Below, piece after piece: positions 27,650 to 43,686 of a DNA stretch of 61,360 bases. Under the pieces are notes generated by a model that did not search any database, was not told the origin of the DNA, and saw only the letters and a program-made list of their open reading frames with translations. The position numbers and the translations under genes are program-made. Each line of letters starts with the position of its first letter. The first letter of the stretch is position 1. Origin of the DNA: Candidatus Aminicenantes bacterium (GTDB lineage: Bacteria > Acidobacteriota > Aminicenantia > Aminicenantales > Saccharicenantaceae); NCBI GenBank assembly GCA_016867635.1, contig VGJC01000001.1:1-61360 (forward strand), written 5' to 3'.

Positions 27650-29103
27650 AGACCATCACCATCGATCCCATCACCCGGCTCGAAGGCCACGGCAAGATCT
27701 CCATCTTCCTGGACGACGCCGGCAACGTCGCCGACGCCTACCTCCAGGTCCCGGAGCTACGCGGCTTCGAGAAGTTCTGCGTCGGCCGCCCCGTCGAGGA
27801 GATGCCGCGCATCACGACCCGCATCTGCGGGGTCTGCCCCGAGGCCCACATGATGGCCGCGGCCAAGGCCTGCGACGCCGTCTATCACGTCGAGCTGCCG
27901 CGCACGGCCAAGATGCTGCGGGAGCTCCTCTACGTCATCTTCTACGTGACCGATCACGCCACTCACTTCTACGCCCTGGGCGGCCCGGACTTCGTCCTGG
28001 GGCCGGAAGCCCCGCCGGCCCAGCGCAACATCCTCGGCGTCGTCCACAAGGTCGGGGTCGAGATCGGCCGCAAGGTCATCGGCATGCGCGGCGCCTGCCA
28101 CGAGCTCATCAAGATGATGGGCGGCAAGGCCGTCCACCCCATCGGCGCCCTCCCGGGCGGGATGAGCAAGGGCCTGAGCAAGGAGGAGCGGGACGAGGTC
28201 CTCAAGATCGGCGAAGAGGCCGTCGAGTTCGGCAAGTTCAGCATCGGCGTCTTCAACCAGATCGTCCTGGGGAACAAGGAATACGTCGACCTCATCCTGA
28301 GCGACAGCTTCACCCACCGGACCTACAACATGGGGCTGGTCGACGAAAAGAACCATGTCAACTTCTACGACGGCCGGGTCCGGGTGACCGGGCCGGACGG
28401 GGCCGAGCGGGCCAAGTTCGCGGCGGCCGACTACCTCGAACACATCGTCGAGCACGTCGAGCCCTGGTCCTACCTCAAGTTCCCCTTCCTGCGCAAGGTC
28501 GGCTGGAAGGGCCTGGTCGACGGGCCCGAGAGCGGGATCTACAAAGCGACCCCCCTTTCCCGGCTCAACGTCTCGGAGGGCATGGCGACGCCTCTGGCCG
28601 ACGAAGAGCACGACCGGCTGTACAAGACCCTGGGCGGGAAACCCGTCCATCAGACCCTGGCCACCCACTGGGCCCGGCTCGTCGAGCTTCTCTACGCCGC
28701 CGAGCGCTGGGTCGAGCTGGCCTCCGACCCCGAGATCGTCGGCCCCGACTACCGGGTCGTCCCCGACCGGACCCCCGACGAGGGCATGGGCGTCGTCGAA
28801 GCCCCCCGGGGCACGCTCTTCCATCATTACAAGACCGACAAGAACGGCATCCTCCAGGAGGCCAACCTGATCGTCGGCACGACCAACAACAACGCGGCCA
28901 TCAACCTGTCGGTCAAGAAGGCCGCCATGGGCTTCATCAAGAACGGCGAGGTCCGCGAGGGGCTGCTGAACATCGTCGAGATGGCCTTCCGGGCTTACGA
29001 CCCCTGCTTCGGGTGCGCGACCCACGCTTGGCCCGGCCAGGCCGCGCTCCACGTCCGCATCTTCGGCCCGGCCGGCGATCTCGTCCACGATCTCAGGAGA
29101 TGA
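27646..29103 (+). CDS. [NiFe] hydrogenase large subunit, group 3c-like (MvhA-like)
   Basis: ORF 26710..29103 trimmed to [18 protein letters not shown].... The ATG overlaps the small-subunit stop as ATGA at 27646-27649. N-terminal Ni-binding [10 protein letters not shown] and C-terminal DPCFGCATH are present, followed by a 25-aa tail. Confidence 0.9.
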
Positions 29104-32919: not shown

Positions 32920-33327
32920 ATGAGAGTCAAGCTCAAGGCCGGTCCCGAACAGCGGACGTTCATCGACAGGATCGAGGAGCTGTCCGGCGAGAACGTCTTC
33001 GCCTGCTATCAGTGCGGGCGGTGCTCCGCCGGCTGCCCCATGGCCTCGGAGATGGACCTGCTGCCCAACCAGATCATCCGTCTGGTCCAGATGGGTCTGC
33101 TGGAGGACGTCCTCCGCTCCAAGACCCTTTTCCTGTGCGCCTCCTGCTTCACGTGCGAATCCCGGTGTCCCAAGGGCATCGACATGGCCCGGGTCATGGA
33201 GGCCGTCCGCCACATCCTGGACCCCAAGGGCAAGGACGCCTTCGGCCCGGGGGAGATCTCTCCGGAGCTGGCCAAGGAACTGCCCCAGCAGGTCATGGTC
33301 GCCCTCTGCCGGAAATTCGCCAAGTAA
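32920..33327 (+). CDS. hdrC: Heterodisulfide reductase subunit C-like (2x 4Fe-4S)
   Basis: ORF 32827..33327 trimmed to MRVKLKAGPEQ..., with GGAGAGAG upstream. Motifs: CYQCGRCSAGCP and CASCFTCESRCP. Confidence 0.85.
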   Translation: MRVKLKAGPEQRTFIDRIEELSGENVFACYQCGRCSAGCPMASEMDLLPNQIIRLVQMGLLEDVLRSKTLFLCASCFTCESRCPKGIDMARVMEAVRHILDPKGKDAFGPGEISPELAKELPQQVMVALCRKFAK

Positions 33328-33336
33328 GGGAAGCCC

Positions 33337-34269
33337 ATGAAACTCCATTACTATCCGGGATGCACGCTGAAGGAGAAGGCCGTCGCCTTGGACATCTCCA
33401 CGCGGGAGGCCATGAAGCGCCTGGACGTCGAGCTCGTCGAACCCGAGGGCTGGACCTGCTGCGGCGCCGAATACCCCCTGACCGAGGAGAAGATCGTCGG
33501 GCTGGCCGCCCCGATCAGGGTCCTGCGCCAGGTCCGTGACGAGGGCGGGGAGGTTCTCGTGACGACCTGCTCGTTCTGTTTCGCCGTCCTGAAACGGGCC
33601 AACAAGGCCCTCCGGGACGACCCGCTCAAACGCAAGCGCATCAACGCTTTCCTGCGGGACGACATCCAGATCGATCCGCTGACCAAGGCCAGGACGACGG
33701 ACTTCGAGGACTACAACGGCGAGGTCCAGGTCCTCCATCTCCTGGAGTACTTGCGAGACCGGGTCGGCACGCCCAAGATCAAGTCCCGCCTTAAGCGCGA
33801 TCTCAAGGGCCTGGCGGTCGCCCCCTATTACGGCTGCCGCCTCCTGCGCCCGCAGGAGGAGATGGCCTTCGACGAGCCCGACGCGCCGCGCGTCTTCGAA
33901 GATTTCCTGGAGGCCGTCGGCTGTTCGGCCGTCGATTACGCGTTCAAGCAGGAGTGCTGCGGCTCCTATCTCTCCGTTTCCCTCCCCGACGCGGCCACCG
34001 AGGCCTCCTACCGCGTCCTGCGGGCGGCCCAGATGGAGGGCGCCCGGGCGGTCACCGTGACCTGCCCCCTGTGCTTCTACAACATGGACAGCCGCCAGGC
34101 GGCCATCAAAGAGAAGTTCCTGGACTTCTCGGGGCTTCCCGTTCTGTACTTCACCCAGATCCTGGCCTGGGCCCTGGGGGTCGACCGCGAGGTCCTGGGC
34201 CTCGGGGAGCACGCCGTTCCCGCCGACAGCCTGTTCGAGGAAGTTCCGACGACCGAGGTGAGGACATGA
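33337..34269 (+). CDS. hdrB: Heterodisulfide reductase subunit B-like (two CCG domains)
   Basis: 310 aa. YYPGC...CCG... (GWTCCGAEY) and ...YYGCRLLRP...CCGSY.... These are the duplicated CCG motifs. Confidence 0.9.
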   Translation: MKLHYYPGCTLKEKAVALDISTREAMKRLDVELVEPEGWTCCGAEYPLTEEKIVGLAAPIRVLRQVRDEGGEVLVTTCSFCFAVLKRANKALRDDPLKRKRINAFLRDDIQIDPLTKARTTDFEDYNGEVQVLHLLEYLRDRVGTPKIKSRLKRDLKGLAVAPYYGCRLLRPQEEMAFDEPDAPRVFEDFLEAVGCSAVDYAFKQECCGSYLSVSLPDAATEASYRVLRAAQMEGARAVTVTCPLCFYNMDSRQAAIKEKFLDFSGLPVLYFTQILAWALGVDREVLGLGEHAVPADSLFEEVPTTEVRT

Positions 34270-36245
34270 CCGTCAAGACCAAGAAGAAAGAGGACAAGCG
34301 CATCGGCCTGTTCGTCTGCCACTGCGGGGTCAACATCGCCGGCGTCGTCGACGTCAAGAAGGTGGCCGAGGCCTTGAAGGACACCCCCGGTGTCAGCATG
34401 TCCACGGATTACGTCTACATGTGCTCGGACCCCGGCCAGCAGATGATCATCGACACCATCAAGGAGAAGCACCTCGACGGGATCATCGTCGCCGCCTGCT
34501 CGCCGACCCTTCACGAGAAGACCTTCCAGGAAGCGGCCCGCCTGGCCGGCCTGAACCCCTACCAGATCGAGATCGCCAACATCCGGGAACAGAACTCCTG
34601 GGTCCACTCCGACAAGGACAAGGCCACCAAGAAGGCCGTCAAGATCGTCAAGTCCCACGTCGCCAAGGCCATCCGGAACGAGAACCTGGAGCCCATCAAG
34701 GTCGACGTCAAGAAAAGGGCCCTGGTCATCGGCGGCGGGGTCAGCGGCCTGCAGGCCGCCTTGGACATCGCCGACCACGGATACGAGGTCATCCTGGTCG
34801 AGAAGAACCCGTCGATCGGCGGCAAGATGATCCAGCTGTCGGAGACCTTCCCGACCCTGGACTGCTCCCAGTGCATCCTGACCCCCAAAATGGTCGAGGT
34901 CTCCCGGCATCCGCGGATCAAGCTCCTGACCTACCACGAGGTCGATTCCGTGTCGGGCTTCATCGGCAACTTCAAGGTCCGCATCAAGAAGAAGCCCCGG
35001 TTCGTGGACGAGAAGCTCTGCAACCTCTGCGGCGAGTGCGAGAAGGTCTGTCCCCAGATCGTCCCCGACGAGTTCAACATGGGCCTGTCCTTCCGCAAGG
35101 CCATCTACATGCCCTTCCCCCAGGCCATCCCGGGCACCTACACCCTGGACGAGGATCACTGCCTCGGCCTGTCGCCGGTGCGGTGCGGCAAATGCAAGGA
35201 CGTCTGCGAGCCGCGGGCCATCGACTTCGACATGAAGGAGACGATCATCGAGGAGGAGGTCGGGGCCATCGTCGTGGCCACCGGCTACGACCTGTATACG
35301 ATGCAGGCCCTGGGCGAGTTCGGCGGCGAGAAGTACGAGGACGTCGTCAACGGCCTGGAGTTCGAGCGCATCCTGTCGGCCTCGGGCCCGACGGGCGGCG
35401 TCGTCCGGCGTCCGTCCGACGGCAAGGTCCCGAAATCCGTCGTCTTCGTCCAGTGCTGCGGCTCCCGCGACACGGAGAAGCACCTGCCGTACTGCTCCAA
35501 GATCTGCTGCATGTACACGGCCAAGCACGCCATGCTCTACCGCCACCGCGTGCCCGACGGGCAGGCTACGGTCTTCTACATCGACGTCCGGACGGGCGGC
35601 AAGGCCTTCGACGAGTTCTACCAGCGGACCGTCGAGGAGGACAAGGTCCTCTACATCCGGGGCAAGGTCTCCAAGGTCTTCAAGGAGGGCGACAAGCTCA
35701 TCGTCTGGGGTGTGGACACCCTGACCGGCAAGAAGGTCGAGATCGAGGCCGACATGGTCGTCCTGGCCATGGCCATGGTCAAGACCGACGGCGTCCAAGA
35801 CCTCCTGAAGAAGCTCAAGATCTCGACCGACATCCACGGCTTCGTCGCCGAGGCCCACCCCAAGCTGCGGCCGGTCGAGAGCCTGAACGCCGGGTTCTTC
35901 CTGGCCGGCTGCGCCCATGGGCCCAAGGACATCCCGGAGGCCGTCTCCCAGGCGTCGGCCGCGGCGGCCAAGGTCGGCGACCTGTTCGCCCAAAAAGAGC
36001 TCAGCCACGAGCCCACGGTCGTCCCGGTCAACGACGAGCTCTGCTCGGGCTGCGGCATCTGCGTCACGATGTGCCCTTACGGGGCCCGGACACTGGACCC
36101 GTCCAAGGGGGTCGTCGACGTCAACGAGATCCTCTGCGAGGGTTGCGGGGCCTGCGCGGCCGCTTGCCCGTGCGGGGCCGCCCAACAGCGCAATCAGACC
36201 GACGACCAGATCTTTTCGATGCTTAGAGCCATGCTGAGGGAGTGA
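34266..36245 (+). CDS. hdrA: Heterodisulfide reductase subunit A-like (FAD, multiple 4Fe-4S)
   Basis: ORF 33954..36245 trimmed to MTVKTKKKEDKRIGLFVCHCGVNIAG.... The ATG overlaps the hdrB stop (ATGA). Motifs: ALVIGGGVSGLQAALD, FPTLDCSQCILTPKM, CNLCGECEKVCP, and the C-terminal CSGCGICVTMCP / CEGCGACAAACP. Confidence 0.9.
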   Translation: MTVKTKKKEDKRIGLFVCHCGVNIAGVVDVKKVAEALKDTPGVSMSTDYVYMCSDPGQQMIIDTIKEKHLDGIIVAACSPTLHEKTFQEAARLAGLNPYQIEIANIREQNSWVHSDKDKATKKAVKIVKSHVAKAIRNENLEPIKVDVKKRALVIGGGVSGLQAALDIADHGYEVILVEKNPSIGGKMIQLSETFPTLDCSQCILTPKMVEVSRHPRIKLLTYHEVDSVSGFIGNFKVRIKKKPRFVDEKLCNLCGECEKVCPQIVPDEFNMGLSFRKAIYMPFPQAIPGTYTLDEDHCLGLSPVRCGKCKDVCEPRAIDFDMKETIIEEEVGAIVVATGYDLYTMQALGEFGGEKYEDVVNGLEFERILSASGPTGGVVRRPSDGKVPKSVVFVQCCGSRDTEKHLPYCSKICCMYTAKHAMLYRHRVPDGQATVFYIDVRTGGKAFDEFYQRTVEEDKVLYIRGKVSKVFKEGDKLIVWGVDTLTGKKVEIEADMVVLAMAMVKTDGVQDLLKKLKISTDIHGFVAEAHPKLRPVESLNAGFFLAGCAHGPKDIPEAVSQASAAAAKVGDLFAQKELSHEPTVVPVNDELCSGCGICVTMCPYGARTLDPSKGVVDVNEILCEGCGACAAACPCGAAQQRNQTDDQIFSMLRAMLRE

Positions 36246-36685
36246 CGATGTTCGAACCGCAAATCATGTGCTTCCTGTGCAAGTGGTGCACCAGCGCGGC
36301 GGCCGACCTGGCCGGCACCTCCCGCCTCCATCACGTCGCCAACACCATCAACATGCGGGTGATGTGCTCCAGCCGGGTCGACCCCCAACACATCCTCTAC
36401 GCGTTCAAGGAGGGGGCCGACGGGGTCTTCCTCGGCGGCTGCCATCCCGGCGACTGCCACTACGTCGAGGGCAACTACAAGACCCTCCGCCGGATCGCCC
36501 TCTTCAAGAAGATGCTGGCTGACCTGGGGATCGACCCGCGGCGGCTGCGCCTCGAGTGGATCTCGGCCGCCGAGGGCAAGAAGTACGCCGAGACGATGAA
36601 TGAATTCACCGAGCAGATCCGGGCCCTGGGGCCCCTCGACCTGAACGATAAAGCTTTAGTCCGAGAGGTGGTCAAAGATGAGTAA
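36242..36685 (+). CDS. mvhD: Methyl-viologen-reducing hydrogenase delta subunit (MvhD) family protein
   Basis: 147 aa. ...IMCFLCKWCTSAAADLAG...MCSSRVDP...GADGVFLGGCHPGDCHY.... The start is GTG 36242 overlapping the hdrA stop (GTGA), or ATG 36248. Confidence 0.9.
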   Translation: MTMFEPQIMCFLCKWCTSAAADLAGTSRLHHVANTINMRVMCSSRVDPQHILYAFKEGADGVFLGGCHPGDCHYVEGNYKTLRRIALFKKMLADLGIDPRRLRLEWISAAEGKKYAETMNEFTEQIRALGPLDLNDKALVREVVKDE

Positions 36686-37457
36686 AACGGCATCCAAACC
36701 GAAGAAGGCCGTCGCCAAGGCGAAGGACGCCGAGGCGAGCCTCGTCCCCATCTTCGTCATGGGGAAGCGTTACGAAGTCCCGGCCTCGCTGACGATCCAG
36801 AAGGCGCTCGAGTACGCCGGCTACCAGCTCGTTCGGGGCTGCGGCTGCCGGGGCGGCATCTGCGGCGCCTGCGGCACGGTCTACCGCTTCCCCGGCTCCT
36901 ACCGGATCGAGGTCGGCCTGGCCTGCCAGACCGTGGTCCAGCCCGAGATGTACATCGCCCAGCTGCCGTTCTTCCCCGGCAACAAGGCCGTCTACGACAT
37001 CGAGACGCTGCCCGCGGTCGGGGGGACCATCGCCGCCCTCTACCCCGAGGTCTTCAAGTGCGTCGGCTGCGGGACCTGCACGCGGAGCTGCCCCATGGAC
37101 ATCGACGTCATGGGCTACATCTCCAAGGCCATCCAGGGCGACCTCACGGCCGTGGCCCAAAGCTCCTTCGACTGCGTCATGTGCGGGCTGTGCGCGGCCC
37201 GCTGCCCGGCCGAGGAGGTCCAGTACAACATCGGCATCCTGGCCCGCCGGCTCTACGCCCGCCACCTGGCCCCCAAGGCCAAGCACCTGGCCGAGGCCGT
37301 CAAGAACGTGGAGGGAAAGAAGTTCGACAAGGCCCTCCAGGAGCTCAAGAAGAAGGACCTGGAAGCCCTCAAGAAGATCTATAAGAGCCTGGAGATCGAG
37401 CCCGACATGGCCGACGAATCCTGGACACCGACCGACAAGTCCTTTCTGGGAGAATGA
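36678..37457 (+). CDS. Succinate dehydrogenase/fumarate reductase iron-sulfur-subunit-like protein (2Fe-2S plus two 4-Cys motifs)
   Basis: 259 aa. RGCGCRGGICGACG...LAC is an SdhB-type 2Fe-2S motif, followed by CVGCGTCTRSCP and CVMCGLCAARCP. The start overlaps the mvhD stop by 8 nt. Confidence 0.75.
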   Translation: MSKTASKPKKAVAKAKDAEASLVPIFVMGKRYEVPASLTIQKALEYAGYQLVRGCGCRGGICGACGTVYRFPGSYRIEVGLACQTVVQPEMYIAQLPFFPGNKAVYDIETLPAVGGTIAALYPEVFKCVGCGTCTRSCPMDIDVMGYISKAIQGDLTAVAQSSFDCVMCGLCAARCPAEEVQYNIGILARRLYARHLAPKAKHLAEAVKNVEGKKFDKALQELKKKDLEALKKIYKSLEIEPDMADESWTPTDKSFLGE

Positions 37458-37460
37458 ACC

Positions 37461-39134
37461 ATGCCCTACACCCCTGAACTGAAGGAACTCATCAAGAAGG
37501 TCGAGAAGACCCGGCCGGCCCGCGTCGAGAAAAAGCGAAAGGGGGAGGAGTTCCCGCCGATGTCCCTCGAGGAGCGCAAGGCCATCCTCAAGTACCACCC
37601 CGATTTCAAGGAGGACGGCCGGAGCGAGATCCTGGTCGGGCCCGACAAGGGCTACCGGATCGCCAAGGAGATGGTCAGCCTGATCCACGCCAAGAGCCGT
37701 CTCGATCCCGAGGCCGTGGACCTCACCCGCGTCGATTACGAGACCGACATCCTGGTCATCGGGGGCGGCGGGGCGGGGGCCTCGGCGGCTCTCCTGGCCC
37801 GAGAGAACGGGGCCAAGGCCCTCATCGCCACGAAGCTCCGTCTGGGCGACGCCAACACGATGATGGCCGAAGGGGGCATCCAGGCGGCGACCAAGGCCGA
37901 CAAGGACTCGCCCTACTTCCACTACCTGGACGCCATGGGCGGGGGGCATTTCAAGAACGACCCCGAGCTGGTCGAGACCCTGGTCGTCGAGGCCCCCAAG
38001 GTCATGGCCTGGCTCGAGAAACAGGGGGCGATGTTCTCCAAGTACGATGACGGCCGGCTCAAGGCCATGCACGGCGGCGGCACCTCCCGCAAGCGCATGC
38101 ACTACGCGGGCGACATCACCGGCGCGGAGATCATGCGGACCCTGCGCGACGAGGTCAAGAACCATCCCGACGACATCCAGGTCCTCGAGTTCTCGCCGGC
38201 CGTCGAGCTCATCCTCAACGCCCACGGGGCCTGCGCCGGCGCGGTCCTCTACAACCTCGAGACCGAGGAGTATTTCCTGGTCAAGGCCAAGGCCGTGGTC
38301 ATGGCCACCGGGGGCTCGGGCCGGCTCCACATCCAGGACTTCATGACCACCAACCACTACGGGGCCACGGGCGACGGTCTGATCATGGGCTACCGGGCCG
38401 GGGTGCCTCTGAGGTTCCTCCACACGGTCCAATACCATCCGACGGGGGCCGTCTTCCCGGAGCAGGCCGAAGGCTTGCTCATCACGGAGAAGGTCCGCGG
38501 GGCGGGGGCCAACGTCCTCAACATCGACGGCGAGCAGTTCGTCTACGAGCGCGAGCCCCGGGACGTCGAAGCGTCGGCCTTCATCCGGGAGTGCCTGGAG
38601 CGGGGAAAGGGCGTGCCCACGCCGACCGGGAAATTCGGCGTCTGGCTCGACTCGCCGATGATCGACGTCCTCAAGGGCGAAGGGACGGTCCGCAAGGAGT
38701 TCCCCGGCAAGTGGATCCTGTTCCACCGCTACGGGATCGACATCACCAAGGAGCCCATGCTCGTCTATCCGACCCTCCACTACCAGAACGGCGGCCTGCA
38801 GATCAACCAGCGGACCGAAACGGTCGTGCCCGGGCTGTTCGTCGCCGGCGAGGCCAGCGGAGGCATCCACGGGGAGAACCGCCTGATGGGCAACTCCCTG
38901 CTCGACGTCGTCGTCTTCGGCCGGATCGCCGGATGCAGAGCGGCCGAATACACCAAGTCGGCGTTCAAGGACGGGGCCCTGTCCCTGGACCACGTCCGGG
39001 CCTATCACCAGGCGCTCGACAACGCCGGCGTTCCCGTGGACGGCCGCGTCGCGCCCATGCTCCTGCCGGACTATTCCAACCCCGAGGTCCGGAAAAAGCA
39101 GCTGACGACGAAGTATCACGGAACGCTGCGGTAA
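37461..39134 (+). CDS. Succinate dehydrogenase/fumarate reductase flavoprotein-like subunit (soluble, non-covalent-FAD type)
   Basis: 557 aa with GGGAGAA 7 nt upstream. Motifs: DILVIGGGGAGASAAL, ...MMAEGGIQAA..., ...VQYHPTG..., ...GLFVAGEASGGIHGENRLMGNSLLD.... The His of the covalent-FAD motif is Asn here (DANTMM). There is an N-terminal extension of about 90 aa. Confidence 0.75.
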   Translation: MPYTPELKELIKKVEKTRPARVEKKRKGEEFPPMSLEERKAILKYHPDFKEDGRSEILVGPDKGYRIAKEMVSLIHAKSRLDPEAVDLTRVDYETDILVIGGGGAGASAALLARENGAKALIATKLRLGDANTMMAEGGIQAATKADKDSPYFHYLDAMGGGHFKNDPELVETLVVEAPKVMAWLEKQGAMFSKYDDGRLKAMHGGGTSRKRMHYAGDITGAEIMRTLRDEVKNHPDDIQVLEFSPAVELILNAHGACAGAVLYNLETEEYFLVKAKAVVMATGGSGRLHIQDFMTTNHYGATGDGLIMGYRAGVPLRFLHTVQYHPTGAVFPEQAEGLLITEKVRGAGANVLNIDGEQFVYEREPRDVEASAFIRECLERGKGVPTPTGKFGVWLDSPMIDVLKGEGTVRKEFPGKWILFHRYGIDITKEPMLVYPTLHYQNGGLQINQRTETVVPGLFVAGEASGGIHGENRLMGNSLLDVVVFGRIAGCRAAEYTKSAFKDGALSLDHVRAYHQALDNAGVPVDGRVAPMLLPDYSNPEVRKKQLTTKYHGTLR

Positions 39135-39154: not shown

Positions 39155-39433
39155 ATGCCGGTAAGGCAAAGAGAAAAACCGTTCGGTTTTCCCAAGCCGG
39201 AGACCCCTCACGGCGAGATCGTCATCCTGGAGGAGCGCTGCAAGGGCTGCGGCTTCTGCATCGAGTACTGTCCGCATGATGTGCTCGTGCTGTCCAAAAA
39301 GTTCAACGCCAAGGGCTACCATCCGCCGGAAGTCGTCAAGGCCGAGCTCTGCGTCGACTGCGGCTTCTGCCGGATGATCTGCCCCGAGTTCGCCATCTAT
39401 ACCTACGAGCTCAAGACGGGAGAAAAGCCATGA
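39155..39433 (+). CDS. korD: 2-oxoacid:ferredoxin oxidoreductase delta subunit (2x 4Fe-4S ferredoxin)
   Basis: 92 aa from the internal ATG of ORF 38591..39433. Motifs: CKGCGFCIEYCP and CVDCGFCRMICP. It is followed by the alpha, beta and gamma genes. Confidence 0.8.
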   Translation: MPVRQREKPFGFPKPETPHGEIVILEERCKGCGFCIEYCPHDVLVLSKKFNAKGYHPPEVVKAELCVDCGFCRMICPEFAIYTYELKTGEKP

Positions 39434-40599
39434 AAGCCGACCCCAAGGGAGTCCTGACCGGATCCCACTACATCGACGGCGACCACGCCTGCTGCGAGGG
39501 CGCCCTGGCGTCCGGATGCCGTTTCGTCGGCGGCTACCCGATCACGCCCTCGACGGAGGTCGTCGAGCGCTTCGCCCGGCGGGCGCCGATGGTCGAAGGC
39601 GCGCACTTCATCCAGATGGAGGACGAGCTGGCGGCCTCGATCGCCATCCAAGGCGCCGTCTGGGCCGGCAAGAAGGCCATGACCGTCACGAGCGGCCCGG
39701 GCTTCTCGCTGATGATGGAGCACATCGGGCTGGCGGTCATGACCGAGACGCCCTGCGTCTTCGTCGACGTTCAGCGCGGCGGGCCGTCGACCGGCCTGCC
39801 GACCCTGCCGGGCCAGGCCGACATGATGCAGGCCCGCTGGGGGTCCCACGGCGACTACGAGATCATCGCCCTCTCGCCGAACTCCCCCCAGGAGTGCTTC
39901 GACCTGACCATCGACGCCTTCAACCTGTCCGAGCAGTATCGCGTGCCGGTCATGTTCATGATGGACGAGTGCGTCGGCCACATGATGGAGCGGGTCGTCA
40001 TCCCGCCGGCCGACCGGATCGAGATCACGCCGCGGCGTTACACGGCGCTGCCGCCGGGAGAGTACCTGCCCTTCAAGCCGGGCCCGGACATGATCCCGGA
40101 AATGTTCAAGGCCGGCGACGGCTACCGGCTGCACATAACCGGGCTGACCCACGACTTCAAGGGTTATCCGGCCATGAACCCCGAGGTCCAGGAACAGCTC
40201 GTCCGGCGCCTGGTCGACAAGATCCGGCTTAGCGAGCCCAAGATCCGGCGTTATGAGGAAGACGGGGTCGAGGACGCCGACGTCGTCGTCGTCACCTACG
40301 GCATCACTTCGCGGGTCGCCGTCGAGGCCATCGAAGCGGCCCGCAAAAGGGGCATCAAGGTCGGCATGCTCCGGCTCGTCGTCGTCTGGCCCTTCCCCGA
40401 GCCCCGGATCTTCGAGCTGGCCTGCCGGGGCAAGGCTTTCGTCATGGCCGAGATGAACTACGGCCAGATCTTCTACGAGGTCGAGCGCTCGGTTCGCGGC
40501 CGGGCCCCGGTCGTCCTGGCCGGGCACGGCGGGGGAACCGTCCACAACATCGATGACATCGTCAAAAAGATCGAGGAGGCCCACCGGTGTCTGTCCTGA
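39430..40599 (+). CDS. korA: 2-oxoglutarate/2-oxoacid:ferredoxin oxidoreductase alpha subunit
   Basis: 389 aa. ...GYPITPSTEV...QMEDELAS...TSGPGFSLM.... The D-A-B-C gene order and the TCA-cycle context favour 2-oxoglutarate specificity, but this is not proven. Confidence 0.8.
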   Translation: MKADPKGVLTGSHYIDGDHACCEGALASGCRFVGGYPITPSTEVVERFARRAPMVEGAHFIQMEDELAASIAIQGAVWAGKKAMTVTSGPGFSLMMEHIGLAVMTETPCVFVDVQRGGPSTGLPTLPGQADMMQARWGSHGDYEIIALSPNSPQECFDLTIDAFNLSEQYRVPVMFMMDECVGHMMERVVIPPADRIEITPRRYTALPPGEYLPFKPGPDMIPEMFKAGDGYRLHITGLTHDFKGYPAMNPEVQEQLVRRLVDKIRLSEPKIRRYEEDGVEDADVVVVTYGITSRVAVEAIEAARKRGIKVGMLRLVVVWPFPEPRIFELACRGKAFVMAEMNYGQIFYEVERSVRGRAPVVLAGHGGGTVHNIDDIVKKIEEAHRCLS

Positions 40600-41486
40600 G
40601 CGAACTCCAAAAAGCGTCATTGAGCCCGACTCCGGATTTCCATCCGGAAAACCATCCCATGGACGATTTCCTGCGGATGGACCGCATGCCCCACATCTGG
40701 TGCTCCACGTGCGGCATCGGCGTCAGCGTCAACTGCTTCGCCAAGGCCCTGGAGAAATGCCAGATCCCGCTCGATCAGGTCGTCGTCGTCTCGGGTATCG
40801 GCTGCACGGGGCGGGTCGCCGGCTACGTCAAGGTCGACTCCTTCCACACGACCCACGGCCGGGCCATCCCCTTCGCCACGGGGATGAAGCTGGCCAACCC
40901 CAAGCTCAAGGTCATCGTTTTCAGCGGCGACGGCGACATCATCGCCATCGGCGGCAACCACTTCATCAACGCCGCCCGGCGGAACATCGACATCACGGTC
41001 ATCTGCGTCAACAACTTCAACTACGCCATGACGGGCGGGCAACTGGCCTCGACGACCCCCGAGGGGTCCGTCCTCTCCACCTCGCCCTTCGGCAGCTACG
41101 AGTTCCCCTTCAACCTGCCTTTCCTGGCCGAGTCGGTCGGCGCGGTCTATGTCGCCCGCTGGACCTCCCTCCACGTCTACAACCAGACCGTCTCCATGGT
41201 CGAGGCCCTCAAGAAGCCGGGCTTCTCGTTCATCGAGGTCATCGCTCCCTGCCCGACGATCTTCGAGCGCCAGCAGAAGATGGGCGACGGCCTGGACCGT
41301 CTGCGGTGGTACTGCGAGAACAGCGACATCCGCAACGGGGCCAGCACCAAGGATGTCGACATCCGGCTTCGGGACAGGATGGTCGTCGGCAAGTTCGTCG
41401 ACGTCGAGCGGCCGACCTACCTCGAGGCGATGAACGCCCATTACCGGGAGCGGCTGGGCTCGAAGTACAAGGACTACGAGGGATAA
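40587..41486 (+). CDS. korB: 2-oxoacid:ferredoxin oxidoreductase beta subunit (TPP-binding)
   Basis: 299 aa with a GTG start. ...WCSTCGIG..., ...GIGCTG..., ...SGDGD..AIGGNH..... is the TPP/Fe-S motif set. Confidence 0.85.
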   Translation: MSVLSELQKASLSPTPDFHPENHPMDDFLRMDRMPHIWCSTCGIGVSVNCFAKALEKCQIPLDQVVVVSGIGCTGRVAGYVKVDSFHTTHGRAIPFATGMKLANPKLKVIVFSGDGDIIAIGGNHFINAARRNIDITVICVNNFNYAMTGGQLASTTPEGSVLSTSPFGSYEFPFNLPFLAESVGAVYVARWTSLHVYNQTVSMVEALKKPGFSFIEVIAPCPTIFERQQKMGDGLDRLRWYCENSDIRNGASTKDVDIRLRDRMVVGKFVDVERPTYLEAMNAHYRERLGSKYKDYEG

Positions 41487-41487
41487 C

Positions 41488-42039
41488 ATGGCCAAGACGG
41501 AGATCAAGATCGGCGGGTTCGGCGGCCAGGGGGTCATCCTGACCGGCTACATCATCGGCAAGGCGGCCTCCATCTTCGACGGCAAGAACGCGACCATGAC
41601 CCAGGCGTTCGGTCCCGAGGCCCGGGGCAGCGCCTGCAGCGCCCAGGTCATCGTCGCCGCCGACGCCATCCTCTATCCGTACGTGAAGCGGCCGCAGATC
41701 ATGGTCATCATGAGCCAGGAGGCCTTCACCAAGTTCTCCCCCCAGCTCGACCCCAACGGGATGATCCTCATCGAGGAGGAGCTCGTCGATCCCAAGGGGC
41801 TGCCGCCGACGGTCAAGGTCTTCGGCATCCCGGCGACGCGGATCGCCGAGGAGCTCGGCCGCAAGATCGTCCTCAACATCGTCATGGCCGGGTTCTTCAC
41901 GGCGGTGACCGGGATCGTCTCCAAGGACGCCATGCGCAAGGCCATCGAGAGCTCGGTGCCGAAAGGGACGGAGGGATTGAACCTCCTGGCCTTCGAGAAA
42001 GGCTACGAGTACGGCCTGGGCAAGGTCCAGGCCCAATAA
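41488..42039 (+). CDS. korC: 2-oxoacid:ferredoxin oxidoreductase gamma subunit
   Basis: 183 aa. ...IGGFGGQGVILTG...FGPEARGS.... Confidence 0.85.
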   Translation: MAKTEIKIGGFGGQGVILTGYIIGKAASIFDGKNATMTQAFGPEARGSACSAQVIVAADAILYPYVKRPQIMVIMSQEAFTKFSPQLDPNGMILIEEELVDPKGLPPTVKVFGIPATRIAEELGRKIVLNIVMAGFFTAVTGIVSKDAMRKAIESSVPKGTEGLNLLAFEKGYEYGLGKVQAQ

Positions 42040-42075: not shown

Positions 42076-43686
42076 ATGCCGGATTTCGTCCACACCCCGA
42101 TGTTCCCCCTGGGACCGGACACGACCGAATACGAGGCCATCTCCCAAGACCACGTCGCCGCCGGCGAATGCGCGGGCCGCCAGGTCCTCAAGGTCGCGCC
42201 GGAGGGGTTGTCGCTGCTGTCCGAACGGGCCTTCCATGACGCCGCCTTCTACCTGCGGACCTCGCATCTCGAGCAGCTCAAGTCCGTCCTCGAGGACCCC
42301 GAGAGCTCGGCCAACGACCGCACGGTCGCCCTCGAGCTCCTCAAGAACGCCGTCATCTCGGCCGACGGCGTCCTGCCGATGTGCCAGGACACGGGCACGG
42401 CCATCATCAACGCCAAGAAGGGCCAGCTGGTCCTGACCGAGGGAAAGGACGAGGAGGCCCTGTCGCGGGGCGTCTTCAACGCCTATGTCGGCAACTTCCT
42501 GCGCTACTCCCAGAACGCCCCGCTGACGATGTACGAGGAGAAGAACACGGGCACGAACCTGCCGGCCCAGATCGAAATCTCCGCCGTCGACGGCGACGAG
42601 TACCGCTTCCTGTTCGTCGCCAAGGGCGGCGGCTCGGCCAACAAGACCTATCTCTTCCAGGAGACCAAGGCCGTCCTCAACCCCGTCTCACTGCCGAAGT
42701 TCCTGGTCGGCAAGATGAAGGCCATCGGCACGGCGGCCTGCCCGCCCTATCACCTGGCGGTCGTCGTCGGCGGGACCTCGGCCGAGCTGGTCCTCAAGAC
42801 GGTCAAGCTGGCCTCGGCCCGCTATCTCGACGGCCTGCCGACGACGGGCGGGTCCGGCGGCCACGCCTTCCGCGACCTCGAGCTCGAGGCCGCCCTCCTC
42901 GAGGCCTCCCGCAAGCTGGGACTCGGGGCCCAGTTCGGCGGCAAGTACTTCTGTCTCGACGTCCGTGTCGTCCGCCTGCCCCGCCACGGCGCCTCCTGTC
43001 CCATCGGCATGGGCGTCAGCTGCAACGCCGACCGCAACGTCAAGGCCAAGATCACCCGCGAGGGGATCTTCCTCGAGCGGCTGGAAAAGGACCCGGCCCG
43101 GTTCCTGCCCGTCCCGGGGGGGGGCGAAGAGGACGCCGTCCGGATCGACCTCGAACGCCCGATGGCCGAGATCCGGGCGACGCTCTCCAAATACCCCGTG
43201 GCGACCCGCCTGTCCCTCGACGGGCCGATCATCGTCGCCCGCGACATCGCCCACGCCAAGCTCAAAGAGAAGGTCGACAAGGGCGAGGACCTGCCGGCCT
43301 ATTTCAGGGATCACATCATCTACTACGCCGGGCCGGCCAAGACGCCGCCCGGCTACGCCTCCGGCTCCCTCGGGCCGACGACGGCCGGCCGCATGGACGA
43401 CTACGTTCCCGTGTTCCAGAAGATGGGCGGCTCTCTGGTCATGCTGGCCAAGGGCAACCGCTCCAAGGGCGTGACCGAGTCCTGCAAGGCCCACGGCGGC
43501 TTCTACCTGGGCTCGATCGGCGGCCCGGCCGCCCGGCTGGCCAAGGACTGCGTCACCAGTCAGGAGATCGTGGCCTACCCCGAGCTGGGCATGGAGGCCG
43601 TCTACAGGATCACGGTCAAGGACTTCCCGGCCTTCATCATCGTCGACGACAAGGGGAATGACTTCTACGAGAAGATCCTGGCCTGA
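42076..43686 (+). CDS. Class I (Fe-S) fumarate hydratase, fused alpha-beta form
   Basis: 536 aa. ...[11 protein letters not shown]... in the N-terminal domain and ...GPTTAGRMD...KGNRS... in the C-terminal domain. Confidence 0.85.

What the first reader, a model, noticed from the sequence alone, without database searches (positions are those of the whole stretch)
32920..39134. HdrCBA-MvhD translationally coupled to an anchor-less FrdB/FrdA-like pair: a candidate fumarate-linked electron-bifurcating complex
Seen in the sequence: hdrC, hdrB, hdrA and mvhD are followed without a break by an SdhB/FrdB-like Fe-S protein (36678-37457), whose start overlaps the mvhD stop by 8 nt. An SdhA/FrdA-like flavoprotein (37461-39134) follows after a 3-nt gap. 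No SdhC/D-type anchor and no TM protein occurs anywhere in the unit. The flavoprotein keeps the H-P-T-G substrate-loop motif (VQYHPTG) and the C-terminal GENRLMGNSLLD segment. The covalent-FAD histidine motif (R-S-H-T-x-A-A-Q-G-G in SdhA/FrdA) instead reads DANTMMAEGG (His to Asn), as in soluble family members with non-covalent FAD. The Fe-S subunit has the SdhB-type 2Fe-2S motif and two complete 4-Cys motifs; one of them (CVMCGLCAARCP) sits where SdhB has its 3-Cys 3Fe-4S motif. Established knowledge: MvhADG-HdrABC bifurcates electrons from H2 to heterodisulfide plus ferredoxin, and methanogen thiol:fumarate reductase TfrB and type-E SdhE carry HdrB-like CCG domains. Inference: the fumarate/succinate couple may take the role of the high-potential acceptor (or donor, in confurcation) of an Hdr/Mvh-type complex. 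That would link H2 and ferredoxin to fumarate reduction. The flanking genes (fumarase, sucCD, ferredoxin-dependent korDABC and AOR) make and use exactly these substrates.
Basis: partly seen in the sequence, partly recalled or inferred. Interest (0 to 1): 0.85.

Follow-up and report, generated by a model that had tools for sequence, protein, structure and literature searches.

The report
Hydrogenase-Hdr operon with soluble fumarate reductase
This operon joins a complete hydrogenase/heterodisulfide-reductase electron-splitting machine to a membrane-free fumarate reductase, an arrangement found across many anaerobic phyla, already proposed in the literature to reduce fumarate and ferredoxin together, and never tested biochemically.

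Summary
All six genes, the junctions (8-nt overlap, 3-nt gap) and the quoted motifs are at the stated coordinates, and no protein in the unit looks membrane-spanning.

The unit is larger than the finding. A full Mvh [NiFe] hydrogenase (mvhG, mvhA) lies upstream in the same 17-gene, same-strand run, so all six subunits of an MvhAGD-HdrABC complex are present.

The flavoprotein keeps every E. coli FrdA catalytic residue. It has an invariant Asn in place of the covalent-FAD His, lacks the usual C-terminal domain and carries a family-specific 93-residue N-terminal extension. It forms its own clade, apart from TfrA-like, SdhA/FrdA-like and NadB-like sequences.

Synteny is strongly conserved. In 80 genomes from about a dozen phyla, including Archaea, the Fe-S gene is adjacent in 72. 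Hdr/MvhD genes lie upstream in 53 of the 60 loci with enough flank. Four independent Fe-S/flavoprotein fusions exist. The donor module varies (Mvh, Flx-like).

The same model was proposed for Pseudoclostridium thermosuccinogenes, tubeworm symbionts and Cloacimonadota between 2019 and 2021. I found no biochemical proof. I class it as a new member of a known, still hypothetical, kind.

The parts
26568..26596 (+). Sigma-70-like promoter candidate (TTGACA-17-TATAGT, 11 of 12) upstream of mvhG. It may be the start of the 17-gene same-strand run.
   Evidence: This is a consensus match only.
26684..27649 (+). mvhG-like [NiFe] hydrogenase small subunit
   Evidence: Pfam Oxidored_q6, 2.9e-23. Translation. 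Co-occurs with mvhA next to the Fe-S/flavoprotein pair in other phyla.
27646..29103 (+). mvhA-like [NiFe] hydrogenase large subunit. Its start overlaps the mvhG stop (ATGA).
   Evidence: Best solved relative is MvhA 5odc_F, 404 bits. Pfam NiFeSe_Hases. Junction.
32920..33327 (+). hdrC, with two CxxCxxCxxxCP motifs (2x[4Fe-4S])
   Evidence: Pfam Fer4_17/Fer4_8 and NCBIfam HdrC 71 bits, below the cutoff. Shine-Dalgarno-like GAGGAGAGAGC before the ATG.
33337..34269 (+). hdrB, with two CCG domains and all ten Cys of the two non-cubane [4Fe-4S] motifs
   Evidence: Pfam CCG 6.4e-21. Full-length match to solved HdrB 8rvu_b (138 bits) and 5odc_B. 30% identical over its full length to a type-E SdhE-like protein.
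34266..36245 (+). hdrA, the electron-bifurcating FAD/Fe-S subunit, full length
   Evidence: 714 bits, residues 9-658 against 2-651 of 5odc_A. NCBIfam HdrA2 818 bits, below the cutoff.
36242..36685 (+). mvhD, the [2Fe-2S] connector subunit
   Evidence: Pfam FlpD 1.2e-50. 5odc_D 160 bits.
36678..37457 (+). Fe-S subunit with FrdB-like cluster content ([2Fe-2S] + 2x[4Fe-4S]). Its start overlaps the mvhD stop by 8 nt.
   Evidence: Twelve invariant Cys. Profile match to W. succinogenes FrdB at E 1.6e-5. Pfam Fer2 in 19 of 19 and Fer2_3 in 9 of 19 members, weakly. Fused to the flavoprotein in P0122, L045, L065 and L072.
37461..39134 (+). FrdA-like flavoprotein, the predicted fumarate reductase catalytic subunit. 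FAD is predicted to be non-covalent. It has an N-terminal 93-residue extension and no Succ_DH_flav_C domain.
   Evidence: Pfam FAD_binding_2 2.7e-74. N132/H326/T328/E343/R346/R367/H440/R474 align with FrdA H44/H232/T234/E245/R248/R287/H355/R390. AF2 model pTM 0.80; best fold match is E. coli FrdA 1kf6_A.
39155..42039 (+). korD (39155-39433), korA (39430-40599), korB (40587-41486), korC (41488-42039): four-subunit 2-oxoacid:ferredoxin oxidoreductase, the likely user or producer of the ferredoxin
   Evidence: Pfam Fer4, POR_N/PFOR_II, TPP_enzyme_C and POR. Linked to the pair in 18 of 60 loci.
42076..43686 (+). Class I (Fe-S) fumarate hydratase, which supplies fumarate
   Evidence: Pfam Fumerase + Fumerase_C.
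24367..26436 (-). Putative sucD (24367-25266) and sucC (25267-26436), succinyl-CoA synthetase, divergently transcribed from the mvh promoter region
   Evidence: Translations. sucCD follows the pair in L005, L037, L038, L045 and L047.

Best explanation
The window, most likely from an Aminicenantes (Acidobacteriota) bacterium, encodes a soluble multi-subunit enzyme. In it an MvhAGD-HdrABC electron-bifurcating core is extended by a two-subunit, anchor-less fumarate reductase.

Proposed mechanism:
- H2 is oxidised at MvhA. Electrons pass through MvhG and MvhD to the FAD of HdrA, where the electron pair is split.
- The low-potential electron leaves through the ferredoxin domains of HdrA to reduce ferredoxin.
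- The high-potential electron runs through HdrC and the non-cubane clusters of HdrB into the [4Fe-4S]/[4Fe-4S]/[2Fe-2S] chain of the Fe-S subunit. From there it reaches the non-covalently bound FAD of the flavoprotein, which reduces fumarate to succinate.
- Overall: 2 H2 + fumarate + Fd(ox) -> succinate + Fd(red) + 2 H+.

Fumarate/succinate (about +30 mV) takes the place of CoM-S-S-CoB (about -140 mV). The ferredoxin made per fumarate matches what KorDABC, encoded immediately downstream, needs to carboxylate the resulting succinyl-CoA. Alternatively the ferredoxin can be used for energy conservation.

Shown here: the gene content, the intact catalytic and cluster-binding residues, the conserved linkage, and the fusions.

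Inferred: physical association, the route through HdrB, ferredoxin reduction, and the direction of operation.
For: A complete MvhAGD-HdrABC set gives full-length matches to the solved complex 5ODC.

The 17 genes lie on one strand with all gaps at or below 36 nt and five overlapping junctions in the hdr-kor stretch (hdrB/hdrA, hdrA/mvhD, mvhD/Fe-S, korD/korA, korA/korB) plus two further upstream. There are no internal + strand promoters, and terminator-like sites occur at chance level.

The flavoprotein has the FrdA fold. All FrdA catalytic residues are invariant across the family, down to about 40% identity.

Neither the Fe-S subunit nor the flavoprotein has an NAD(P)H-binding domain, and neither has a membrane or quinone module. 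They therefore need a protein electron donor.

Across 80 genomes the Fe-S gene is adjacent in 72. Hdr/MvhD genes are upstream in 53 of 60 informative loci, hdrB/C in 51. These include Thermoplasmata and Theionarchaea.

The donor module varies while hdrCB plus the Fe-S/flavoprotein pair stays: MvhAG in L008, L018, L061 and L079; FlxABC-like NAD(P)H module in Sporomusa rhizae L059; a long HdrA in Desulfobacterota. This is the pattern expected if the pair is the constant acceptor arm.

An HdrB-like CCG module working with FrdB/FrdA-type subunits has precedent in TfrB and in type-E SdhE.

MetFV-HdrABC-MvhD is a purified precedent for an Hdr module serving a non-disulfide reductase (PMC5861303).

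In P. thermosuccinogenes the analogous 'succinate operon' is transcribed. That paper cites Sridhar & Eiteman (2001), who found that 85% H2 in the headspace almost completely abolished succinate production; the authors take this as fitting fumarate reduction coupled to ferredoxin reduction (PMC7282089).
Against: There are no biochemical, proteomic or expression data for this organism, and I found no purified complex of this kind in the literature.

HdrB keeps a complete disulfide-reducing site, so an unknown thiol/disulfide mediator cannot be excluded.

Seven of 60 informative loci show no Hdr gene within 10 kb, and about ten loci (for example L011, L013, L029, L032-L035, L065) show only hdrC and hdrB next to the pair, with no hdrA or mvhD in the DNA held. 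Coupling to a bifurcating HdrA is therefore not universal.

In Endoriftia the tfrAB genes did not follow the expression pattern of the rest of the cluster (PMC11636981).

The homology of the Fe-S subunit to FrdB is only weakly supported, and its AF2 model was unusable.

The 80 loci are the best-matching of at least 575 hits, so the sample is biased towards this clade.
Confidence: 0.55

Rival explanations
1. Split thiol:fumarate reductase. HdrC-HdrB plus the Fe-S subunit and flavoprotein form a Tfr-like enzyme. It oxidises an unknown dithiol (a small thiol pair or a DsrC-like protein) at the HdrB CCG site and reduces fumarate. The disulfide is re-reduced elsewhere. Coupling to bifurcation is then indirect, through a diffusible mediator.
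For: HdrB (310 aa) plus the Fe-S subunit (259 aa) together have the domain content of methanogen TfrB. The window HdrB and Fe-S protein both give weak hits to the TfrB model. About ten loci (for example L011, L013, L029, L032-L035, L065) show only hdrC-hdrB-FeS-flavoprotein, without hdrA or mvhD in the DNA held. All ten CCG Cys are intact. Mitchell et al. mention a route by way of Fd(red) and a DsrC-like protein as an alternative (PMC11636981).
Against: The window run has a single hdrCB pair, sandwiched in hdrCBA-mvhD with overlapping junctions. The same HdrB would have to both make and consume the disulfide. No thiol-cofactor biosynthesis gene or dsrC-like gene is seen in the run. Bacteria lack CoM and CoB.
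Confidence: 0.15
2. Co-transcription without a shared complex. Mvh-Hdr bifurcates with some other high-potential acceptor to make reduced ferredoxin. The Fe-S/flavoprotein pair is a separate soluble ferredoxin:fumarate reductase. The genes are clustered only because they serve one pathway.
For: The run also contains clearly separate enzymes (acetate kinase, Kor, fumarase, AOR), so co-location alone does not prove a complex. The 2x[4Fe-4S] domain of the Fe-S subunit resembles ferredoxin-interacting polyferredoxins in PDB profile matches. Seven of 60 loci lack nearby Hdr genes.
Against: Linkage is specifically to hdrC-hdrB, immediately upstream and often overlapping, across phyla in which the other pathway genes come and go. 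No alternative Hdr substrate is evident. Reducing fumarate with ferredoxin and without coupling would waste about 0.45 V.
Confidence: 0.12
3. The same complex runs in reverse (confurcation). Succinate and reduced ferredoxin together drive H2 (or NADH) formation. This would solve the energetically difficult succinate oxidation step in organisms that oxidise propionate or amino acids.
For: The family is common in Syntrophobacterales, Syntrophaceae, Syntrophorhabdus and Syntrophomonadaceae MAGs. The window also carries methylmalonyl-CoA mutase, MeaB and sucCD, which are enzymes of the succinate/methylmalonyl-CoA pathway. Kor could supply Fd(red) oxidatively.
Against: The average of about +30 mV and about -450 mV is about -210 mV. 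That is marginal for H2 formation except at very low H2. Non-covalent FAD is typical of fumarate-reducing rather than succinate-oxidising family members (established knowledge). Syntrophic propionate oxidisers are thought to use membrane-bound Sdh with reverse electron transport (PMC10579422).
Confidence: 0.1
4. The flavoprotein acts on a substrate other than fumarate, for example L-aspartate as in NadB, or another enoate or dicarboxylate.
For: No curated family cutoff is reached: TfrA 350 of 718 bits, NadB 278 of 453 bits. NadB shares the same His/Arg catalytic set, so the residues alone do not discriminate. The family is its own clade, with an unusual N-terminal extension and no C-terminal domain.
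Against: Repeated linkage to fumarase, sucCD and kor in distant phyla. An obligatory Fe-S partner and fusions, unlike NadB. Best fold match to FrdA. It is the only fumarate reductase candidate named in the 'succinate operon' of the succinate producer P. thermosuccinogenes (PMC7282089; sequence identity to this family not verified here).
Confidence: 0.06

Closest known systems
MvhAGD-HdrABC, the H2:CoM-S-S-CoB/ferredoxin electron-bifurcating complex of methanogens (PDB 5ODC)
   Same: All six subunits are present with full-length matches. HdrA gives 714 bits; HdrB keeps both CCG motifs; MvhD, MvhA and MvhG are present. The donor (H2) and the low-potential acceptor (ferredoxin) are presumably the same.
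   Different: The organism is a bacterium without CoM or CoB. Two extra subunits (Fe-S and flavoprotein) are translationally coupled downstream of mvhD. The proposed high-potential acceptor is fumarate, not a heterodisulfide. No NCBIfam Hdr equivalog cutoff is reached.
Hdr-linked soluble fumarate reductase clusters already proposed in the literature: Flx-Hdr-FR 'succinate operon' of Pseudoclostridium thermosuccinogenes; flxABCD-hdrABC-korABCD-tfrAB of Endoriftia, Escarpia symbionts and Thioflavicoccus; Mvh-Hdr-TFR-OGOR-fumarase-sucCD of Ca. Celaenobacter
   Same: The gene content and the proposed mechanism are the same. The Celaenobacter cluster lists the same gene set as this window (PMC8542988). 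The Flx variant is seen here in Sporomusa rhizae L059. The 'kor between hdrA and hdrBC' layout (PMC11636981) is seen in L036, L040, L043 and L077.
   Different: This window is from a different phylum (Aminicenantes-like) and has its own gene order (mvhGA-ack-small ORF-HEAT-hdrCBA-mvhD-FeS-flavoprotein-korDABC-fum-AOR). I could not fetch the published sequences, so membership of one protein family is inferred from architecture, not verified. None of these systems has been biochemically characterised.
Thiol:fumarate reductase TfrAB of Methanothermobacter
   Same: It is a soluble, anchor-less fumarate reductase. TfrA is the best NCBIfam hit of the flavoprotein. Both combine FrdB-type clusters with HdrB-type CCG domains. 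Both are presumed to have non-covalent FAD and a second [4Fe-4S] in place of the [3Fe-4S].
   Different: The flavoprotein scores 350 bits against a cutoff of 718. It lacks the C-terminal domain, has an N-terminal extension, and lies in a different clade from TfrA-like sequences. The CCG module is a separate HdrB protein, not fused to the Fe-S subunit. The electron donor is proposed to be the Hdr core, not CoM-SH plus CoB-SH.
Type-E succinate:quinone oxidoreductase / methylmenaquinol:fumarate reductase (SdhABE)
   Same: An HdrB-like CCG protein partners an SdhA/SdhB pair. The window HdrB scores 135 bits on the MFR SdhE model and is 30% identical to the SdhE-like protein of L037. The SdhB has a 4-Cys second motif.
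   Different: Type-E SdhA keeps the covalent-FAD His (RSHSVAAQGG in L037) and the C-terminal domain. The enzyme is membrane-associated and quinone-linked and has no HdrA or MvhD.
MetFV-HdrABC-MvhD methylene-tetrahydrofolate reductase of Moorella thermoacetica
   Same: The hdrCBA-mvhD genes are followed by the genes of a non-disulfide reductase. It was purified as one complex and is proposed to bifurcate (PMC5861303).
   Different: The terminal reductase is MetFV (FMN, methylene-H4F), not an FrdAB-like pair. The donor is NADH. The second acceptor is still unidentified.
Five-subunit soluble NADH-dependent fumarate reductase of Hydrogenobacter thermophilus (Miura et al. 2008)
   Same: It is a soluble, multi-subunit fumarate reductase that operates in the reductive TCA cycle, with an FrdA/FrdB-type catalytic pair plus extra electron-input subunits (PMC13147460).
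   Different: Its genes are scattered in the genome, the donor is NADH, and it was not described as bifurcating. The paper was not available to me, so the subunit homologies could not be compared.

Membership tests
MvhAGD-HdrABC-type electron-bifurcating complex | HdrA with the bifurcating FAD domain, N-terminal and C-terminal Fe-S domains and the inserted ferredoxin domain | tested here: met
   Collinear match of residues 9-658 to 2-651 of HdrA 5odc_A, 714 bits. The NCBIfam equivalog cutoffs are not reached (818 of 1100), as expected for a bacterial homologue.
MvhAGD-HdrABC-type electron-bifurcating complex | HdrB with two CCG motifs (CX31-39CCX35-36CXXC) for the two non-cubane [4Fe-4S] clusters, plus HdrC with 2x[4Fe-4S] | tested here: met
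   Pfam CCG matched in two stretches. Cys 9/41/42/78/81 and the second set of five Cys are seen in the translation and in the alignment to 8rvu_b. HdrC has two CxxCxxCxxxCP motifs.
MvhAGD-HdrABC-type electron-bifurcating complex | MvhD plus a group 3c [NiFe] hydrogenase MvhA/MvhG encoded with hdr | tested here: met
   MvhD against 5odc_D, 160 bits. MvhA against 5odc_F, 404 bits, the best of all hydrogenases. MvhG matches Oxidored_q6. All lie in the same-strand run.
MvhAGD-HdrABC-type electron-bifurcating complex | Catalyses coupled reduction of ferredoxin and a high-potential acceptor with H2 | not testable with these tools
   This needs enzyme assays.
Fumarate reductase / succinate dehydrogenase flavoprotein (FrdA/SdhA superfamily) | FAD_binding_2 fold with a capping domain | tested here: met
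   PF00890 at 2.7e-74. AF2 pTM 0.80. The top Foldseek hits are E. coli FrdA and M. smegmatis Sdh1, with probability 1.00.
Fumarate reductase / succinate dehydrogenase flavoprotein (FrdA/SdhA superfamily) | Catalytic and substrate-binding set His232, Thr234, Glu245, Arg287, His355, Arg390 (E. coli FrdA numbering) | tested here: met
   H326, T328, E343, R367, H440 and R474 align to these residues. They are invariant in 13 sequences down to 39% identity, and in 34 further sequences.
Fumarate reductase / succinate dehydrogenase flavoprotein (FrdA/SdhA superfamily) | Covalent 8-alpha-N3-histidyl FAD (His44) and the C-terminal Succ_DH_flav_C domain, as in the membrane-bound complex II enzymes | tested here: not met
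   His is replaced by an invariant Asn132. PF02910 was not detected, and only about 55 residues follow the FAD domain. This is therefore not a canonical complex II flavoprotein.
Thiol:fumarate reductase TfrAB | TfrA orthology (NCBIfam NF004900 equivalog) | tested here: not met
   350 bits against a cutoff of 718; only positions 6-409 of the 546-position model are matched. It lies in a separate clade from sequences scoring 555-568 bits on the TfrA model.
Thiol:fumarate reductase TfrAB | TfrB: an FrdB-like Fe-S domain fused to HdrB-like CCG domains in one polypeptide | tested here: not met
   The Fe-S protein is 259 aa with no CCG domain. The CCG domains are in the separate HdrB. The domain content is equivalent only if the two proteins are taken together.
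SdhB/FrdB iron-sulfur subunit | N-terminal [2Fe-2S] domain (Cx4Cx2C...C) followed by a dicluster domain, recognised by SdhB/FrdB models | tested here: inconclusive
   The motifs are present and invariant. Model support is weak: TIGR00384 27.8 of 88 bits; Fer2_3 in 9 of 19 members at E >= 6e-4; W. succinogenes FrdB E 1.6e-5 and E. coli FrdB 1.2e-4 with a profile; hhalign probability 75%. The AF2 model is too poor for a fold search.
Hdr-linked soluble fumarate reductase (literature hypothesis) | FrdBA-like pair without an anchor, genetically linked to hdrABC plus mvhD/flxD and to a donor module | tested here: met
   Shown for the window and for 53 of 60 informative related loci, with Mvh or Flx-like donor modules.
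Hdr-linked soluble fumarate reductase (literature hypothesis) | Sequence-level orthology with the published examples (P. thermosuccinogenes CDQ83_RS03320-25; Endoriftia and Thioflavicoccus tfrAB; Celaenobacter TFR) | not tested
The link is inferred from identical cluster architecture only.

The most novel reading that the evidence does not exclude
The Fe-S/flavoprotein pair is a stably bound terminal module of an eight-subunit MvhAGD-HdrABC-FrdBA supercomplex. In it the non-cubane clusters of HdrB serve as a pure electron relay with no thiol substrate. This would be the first Hdr-class bifurcating enzyme whose high-potential acceptor is a C=C bond. The same acceptor arm (HdrCB + Fe-S + flavoprotein) would be an ancient, exchangeable cassette plugged into H2-, NAD(P)H- or other donor modules in about a dozen bacterial and archaeal phyla. 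It would balance ferredoxin for the reductive TCA branch without any membrane step.
Probability: 0.4. Interest if true: 0.75.

Novelty: new member of a known kind. Interest (0 to 1): 0.5.

Why it matters
If the model is right, fumarate reduction in many strict anaerobes is not a quinone-linked respiratory step. It would be a cytoplasmic bifurcation that turns the large potential drop from H2 or NADH to fumarate into reduced ferredoxin.

That would change several things:
- ATP and ferredoxin budgets calculated for the reductive TCA cycle;
- budgets for succinate and propionate fermentations, including gut Bacillota and industrial succinate producers;
- possibly, run in reverse, budgets for syntrophic succinate oxidation.

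It would also add a carbon-carbon double bond to the short list of high-potential acceptors of Hdr-type bifurcation.

The survey here shows that the cassette is widespread. It also occurs in cultured organisms: Sporomusa rhizae DSM 16652, Clostridium estertheticum, Marinisporobacter balticus, Acetoanaerobium pronyense and Christensenella tenuis. The hypothesis is therefore directly testable.

Tried and rejected
- AF2 model of the Fe-S subunit. The allowed alignment had only homologues of at least 71% identity, and the model came out at pLDDT 54, pTM 0.34. It was too poor for a fold search, so I relied on profile matches.
- Diverse alignment A1 for structure prediction. I did not hand it in because it holds sequences from the representatives search, which the tool does not accept. 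I used A3 instead.
- Miura et al. 2008 (H. thermophilus five-subunit FRD). The paper is not held, so my recollection that its extra subunits resemble Hdr/Mvh/GltD proteins remains unverified and is not used as evidence.
- Published tfrAB/FR sequences from Endoriftia, Thioflavicoccus, Celaenobacter and P. thermosuccinogenes. The single genome scan kept only the best 80 of at least 575 hits, and none of these was among them.
- Terminator scan. It found 14 sites against 12.3 expected by chance. The only + strand site inside the run (38255) is a 5-bp stem within the flavoprotein gene, which I rejected as noise.
- NadB identity. I considered and rejected it because of the obligatory Fe-S partner, the fusions, the separate clade and the TCA-gene context. 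The catalytic residues alone do not discriminate.
- Literature searches for a biochemical demonstration. They found only genomic and transcriptomic proposals.
- hhalign of the Fe-S profile against one type-E SdhB. It aligned the 2Fe-2S domain convincingly but mis-registered the dicluster motifs. I count it as weak support only.

Full report
**1. Observation**

The window has 67% G+C, so I checked long ORFs by third-position G+C. The six genes of the finding are real and lie at the stated coordinates:
- hdrC 32920-33327
- hdrB 33337-34269
- hdrA 34266-36245
- mvhD 36242-36685
- a 259-aa Fe-S protein, 36678-37457
- a 557-aa flavoprotein, 37461-39134

The mvhD stop and the Fe-S start overlap by 8 nt, and the Fe-S gene and the flavoprotein gene are 3 nt apart.

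Pfam and NCBIfam confirm the families. The matches are 2x[4Fe-4S] for HdrC, two CCG domains for HdrB, an HdrA-type flavoprotein, FlpD/MvhD (1e-50), a dicluster protein with a weak N-terminal 2Fe-2S match, and FAD_binding_2 (2.7e-74). No curated NCBIfam equivalog cutoff is reached by any of the six.

All the quoted motifs are present. None of these products has a 19-residue window with Kyte-Doolittle hydropathy of 1.6 or more.

**2.

The unit is part of a run of 17 genes on the + strand with no gap larger than 36 nt. The order is:

mvhG (26684-27649), mvhA (27646-29103), acetate kinase, a 165-aa ORF, a 611-aa HEAT-repeat protein, hdrCBA, mvhD, Fe-S, flavoprotein, korDABC, class I fumarase, AOR.

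sucCD is transcribed divergently. The best solved relatives are the subunits of the methanogen MvhAGD-HdrABC complex:
- MvhA against 5odc_F, 404 bits
- MvhD against 5odc_D, 160 bits
- HdrA against 5odc_A, 714 bits over the full length
- HdrB against 8rvu_b and 5odc_B over the full length, with all ten CCG Cys

A complete H2-oxidising bifurcating core is therefore encoded together with the Fe-S/flavoprotein pair.

The only strong promoter-like site on the + strand lies upstream of mvhG (26568-26596). Terminator-like sites occur at chance level, and none is convincing inside the run.

**3. The flavoprotein**

Alignments to solved structures map the residues to E. coli FrdA as follows:

| Window residue | E. 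coli FrdA residue | Role |
|---|---|---|
| Asn132 | His44 | covalent FAD attachment |
| His326, Thr328 | His232, Thr234 | catalytic set |
| Glu343, Arg346 | Glu245, Arg248 | catalytic set |
| Arg367 | Arg287 | catalytic set |
| His440 | His355 | catalytic set |
| Arg474 | Arg390 | catalytic set |

All of these, including the Asn, are invariant in family alignments that reach down to 39% identity.

The protein lacks the Succ_DH_flav_C domain. It has a conserved N-terminal extension of about 93 residues, which AF2 predicts with pLDDT 77-94. The model (pTM 0.80) matches E. coli FrdA best, followed by other SdhA/FrdA proteins, NadB and Fcc3.

In a neighbour-joining tree of 100 superfamily representatives, the family is a clade of its own. 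Its nearest neighbours are uncharacterised flavoproteins of about 400 aa. Sequences that score as TfrA-like, SdhA/FrdA or NadB lie elsewhere.

It is therefore an FrdA-superfamily enzyme with an intact fumarate site and predicted non-covalent FAD. It is not an orthologue of TfrA, of complex II flavoproteins or of NadB.

**4. The Fe-S subunit**

Twelve Cys are invariant in 19 homologues of 43-65% identity. They form Cx4Cx2C...C plus two CxxCxxCxxxC(P) motifs. This implies [2Fe-2S] + 2x[4Fe-4S], with a fourth Cys in the motif where SdhB has three.

Public annotation calls the protein 'heterodisulfide reductase subunit C' or '4Fe-4S dicluster protein'. Homology to FrdB/SdhB is only weakly detectable:
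- The profile matches W. succinogenes FrdB at E 1.6e-5 and E. coli FrdB at 1.2e-4, collinear over the 2Fe-2S domain and the first motif.
- Pfam Fer2 matches 19 of 19 members and Fer2_3 matches 9 of 19, both weakly.
- hhalign against a type-E SdhB gives 75% probability.
- The AF2 model was unusable.

The functional link to the flavoprotein is nevertheless strong. The two are fused into one polypeptide in P0122, L045 (Bacillota), L065 (Theionarchaea) and L072 (Clostridia).

**5. Distribution and synteny**

The flavoprotein has hundreds of close relatives in metagenomes. One scan of species-representative genomes returned at least 575 relatives. The best 80 (52-89% identity) come, by their record titles, from these groups:
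- Bacteria: Aminicenantes (closest, 87-89%), several Desulfobacterota/Thermodesulfobacteriota orders, Dehalococcoidia, Anaerolineae, Bacillota (including the cultured Sporomusa rhizae), Fermentibacteria, Nitrospirales, Fibrobacterota, WOR-3, Spirochaetaceae, Ignavibacteriaceae and Pseudomonadota
- Archaea: Thermoplasmata and Theionarchaea

A second protein search added cultured Clostridium estertheticum, Marinisporobacter, Acetoanaerobium, Ilyobacter, Cetobacterium and Christensenella.

I mapped the window's proteins onto the 80 loci with tblastn:
- The Fe-S gene is adjacent to the flavoprotein gene in 72 of 80 loci.
- Among the 60 loci with at least 5 kb upstream, 53 have an hdr or mvhD gene on the same strand. 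Of these, 51 have hdrB/C, 42 have hdrA and 36 have mvhD.
- kor genes are present in 18, mvhAG in 7, sucCD in 6 and fumarase in 5.

The recurrent core is hdrC-hdrB-FeS-flavoprotein, while the donor side varies:
- MvhAG in Aminicenantes, Fermentibacteria and Thermoplasmata.
- In Sporomusa rhizae, a FlxA-like NAD-binding flavoprotein plus two Fe-S proteins between mvhD/flxD and the Fe-S gene.
- A 1003-aa extended HdrA in Desulfobacterota.

A constant acceptor arm with exchangeable donor modules is how Hdr supercomplexes are known to be built.

**6. Mechanism**

The best-supported reading is an H2-dependent, Hdr-type bifurcating fumarate reductase. The proposed path is:
- H2 is oxidised at MvhA, and electrons pass via MvhG and MvhD to the HdrA FAD.
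- One branch goes to ferredoxin.
- The other branch goes via HdrC and HdrB to the Fe-S subunit and then to the flavoprotein FAD, which reduces fumarate.

Established potentials make this comfortably exergonic. H2 is at -414 mV, fumarate/succinate at about +30 mV, CoM-S-S-CoB at -140 mV and ferredoxin at about -450 mV or lower.

Electron flow between CCG-type clusters and FrdB-type clusters has precedent in TfrB (a fusion) and in type-E SdhE. The window HdrB scores 135 bits on the MFR SdhE model. It is 30% identical over its full length to the SdhE-like protein of a canonical type-E sdhABE cluster that happens to lie in L037.

MetFV-HdrABC-MvhD shows that an Hdr module can be purified bound to a non-disulfide reductase (PMC5861303).

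Downstream, korDABC would consume one reduced ferredoxin per succinyl-CoA, which matches the one produced per fumarate.

What is shown is gene content, residues, linkage and fusions. Association, the route through HdrB, ferredoxin reduction and direction are all inferred.

**7. Rivals**

- (a) A split thiol:fumarate reductase that uses an unknown dithiol at the intact HdrB site. The hdrCB-only loci favour this. The single hdrCB pair embedded in hdrCBA-mvhD argues against it.
- (b) Mere co-transcription, with the pair acting as an independent ferredoxin:fumarate reductase.
- (c) Reverse operation (succinate plus reduced ferredoxin to H2). This is attractive for the many syntroph genomes and fits the methylmalonyl-CoA mutase, MeaB and sucCD genes in this window. 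It is thermodynamically marginal.
- (d) Another substrate. The context makes this unlikely.

**8. Comparison with the literature**

The idea is not new.
[quoted passage not shown] Its 'succinate operon' is fumarase, seven Flx-Hdr genes, then two FR genes. PMC7282089 cites Sridhar & Eiteman (2001), who found that 85% H2 in the headspace almost completely abolished succinate production.
- Rubin-Blum et al. (PMC6315080) proposed that flxABCD-hdrABC, interspersed with korABCD and tfrAB in tubeworm symbionts and Thioflavicoccus, form a complex feeding OGOR and fumarate reductase.
- Mitchell et al. (PMC11636981) showed co-expression of most of that cluster, but not of tfrAB.
- Williams et al. (PMC8542988) described, in Ca. 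Celaenobacter (Cloacimonadota), a cluster of TFR, OGOR, fumarase, succinyl-CoA synthetase, group 3c Mvh and Hdr. This is the same gene set as this window.
- A 2026 survey summarises the model (PMC13147460).

I found no paper that demonstrates the complex or the reaction, and none that describes it in Aminicenantes.

I could not retrieve the published sequences. Identity of the protein family with those cases is therefore inferred from architecture.

**9. Verdict**

The finding is a further, H2-linked member of a cluster type whose function has already been hypothesised.

Its remaining value has four parts:
- the breadth of conservation documented here;
- the recognition that the flavoprotein is a distinct clade (N-terminal extension, no C-terminal domain, invariant Asn);
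- the fusions;
- the list of cultured hosts in which the still-open biochemical question can be settled.

Noticed in passing
window 30563-32897 (+); also L001 3071-5400 and L004 2875-5200: A 165-aa ORF with no Pfam match and a 611-aa HEAT/PBS-lyase-repeat protein sit between the hydrogenase/acetate kinase genes and hdrC. Both are conserved in the same position in two related loci (90%/70% and 70%/55% identity). Their role in an mvh-hdr operon is unknown; they could be an assembly or scaffold factor.
   Followed up: partly
window 29100-30551 (+): An acetate kinase gene is embedded between mvhA and the hdr genes, and its start overlaps the mvhA stop (ATGA). This is an odd position for a substrate-level phosphorylation enzyme inside a redox-complex operon.
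   Followed up: no
window 10145-17006 (-): A second putative bifurcating system lies on the minus strand. It has NuoE- and NuoF-like genes and a NuoG/molybdopterin (formate dehydrogenase-like) subunit. These are followed by an NfnAB-like pair (Fer4_20 + Pyr_redox_2, and a DHODB_Fe-S_bind protein).
   Followed up: partly
window 18577-20223 (-) and 21914-23977 (+): There is an [FeFe]-hydrogenase-like protein with a C-terminal 'putative Fe-S cluster' domain, next to a Cache/HAMP histidine kinase. The pairing suggests a sensory rather than a catalytic hydrogenase.
   Followed up: no
window 1341-9081 (-): Genes for thiolase, enoyl-CoA hydratase, acyl-CoA dehydrogenase, methylmalonyl-CoA mutase and MeaB lie here. 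Together with sucCD and the fumarate reductase they outline a succinate/methylmalonyl-CoA (propionate) route. This bears on the physiological direction of the fumarate/succinate step.
   Followed up: partly
L045 1749-4049; L065 9284-11632; L072 9311-11617; protein P0122: The Fe-S subunit and the flavoprotein are naturally fused into one polypeptide of 727-782 aa in Bacillota, Clostridia and Theionarchaea.
   Followed up: partly
L037 17256-20813: A canonical type-E sdhA (covalent-FAD His present), sdhB and HdrB-like sdhE cluster lies 6 kb downstream of the Hdr-linked pair in a Thermodesulfobacteriota MAG. Both kinds of enzyme therefore coexist in one genome.
   Followed up: partly
proteins P0146, P0154, P0156, P0163, P0166, P0173, P0197, P0208, P0221, P0269: The nearest clade to the family consists of flavoproteins of about 400-415 aa. 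They lack both the N-terminal extension and any C-terminal domain, and they score equally (about 250-260 bits) on the NadB and TfrA models. Their function is unknown.
   Followed up: no
window 26526-26543 (+): A G+C-rich hairpin followed by a T run lies in the divergent sucC/mvhG intergenic region, just upstream of the promoter-like site. It could be a terminator, an attenuator or a regulatory element.
   Followed up: no
L005 4374-7385 and equivalents in L006, L007, L009, L010, L015, L028 and L030: The Desulfobacterota loci carry a 1003-aa HdrA-like protein with extra N-terminal ferredoxin and nucleotide-binding-like regions, plus a second normal-length hdrA. This suggests a different electron-input arrangement for the same acceptor arm.
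   Followed up: partly
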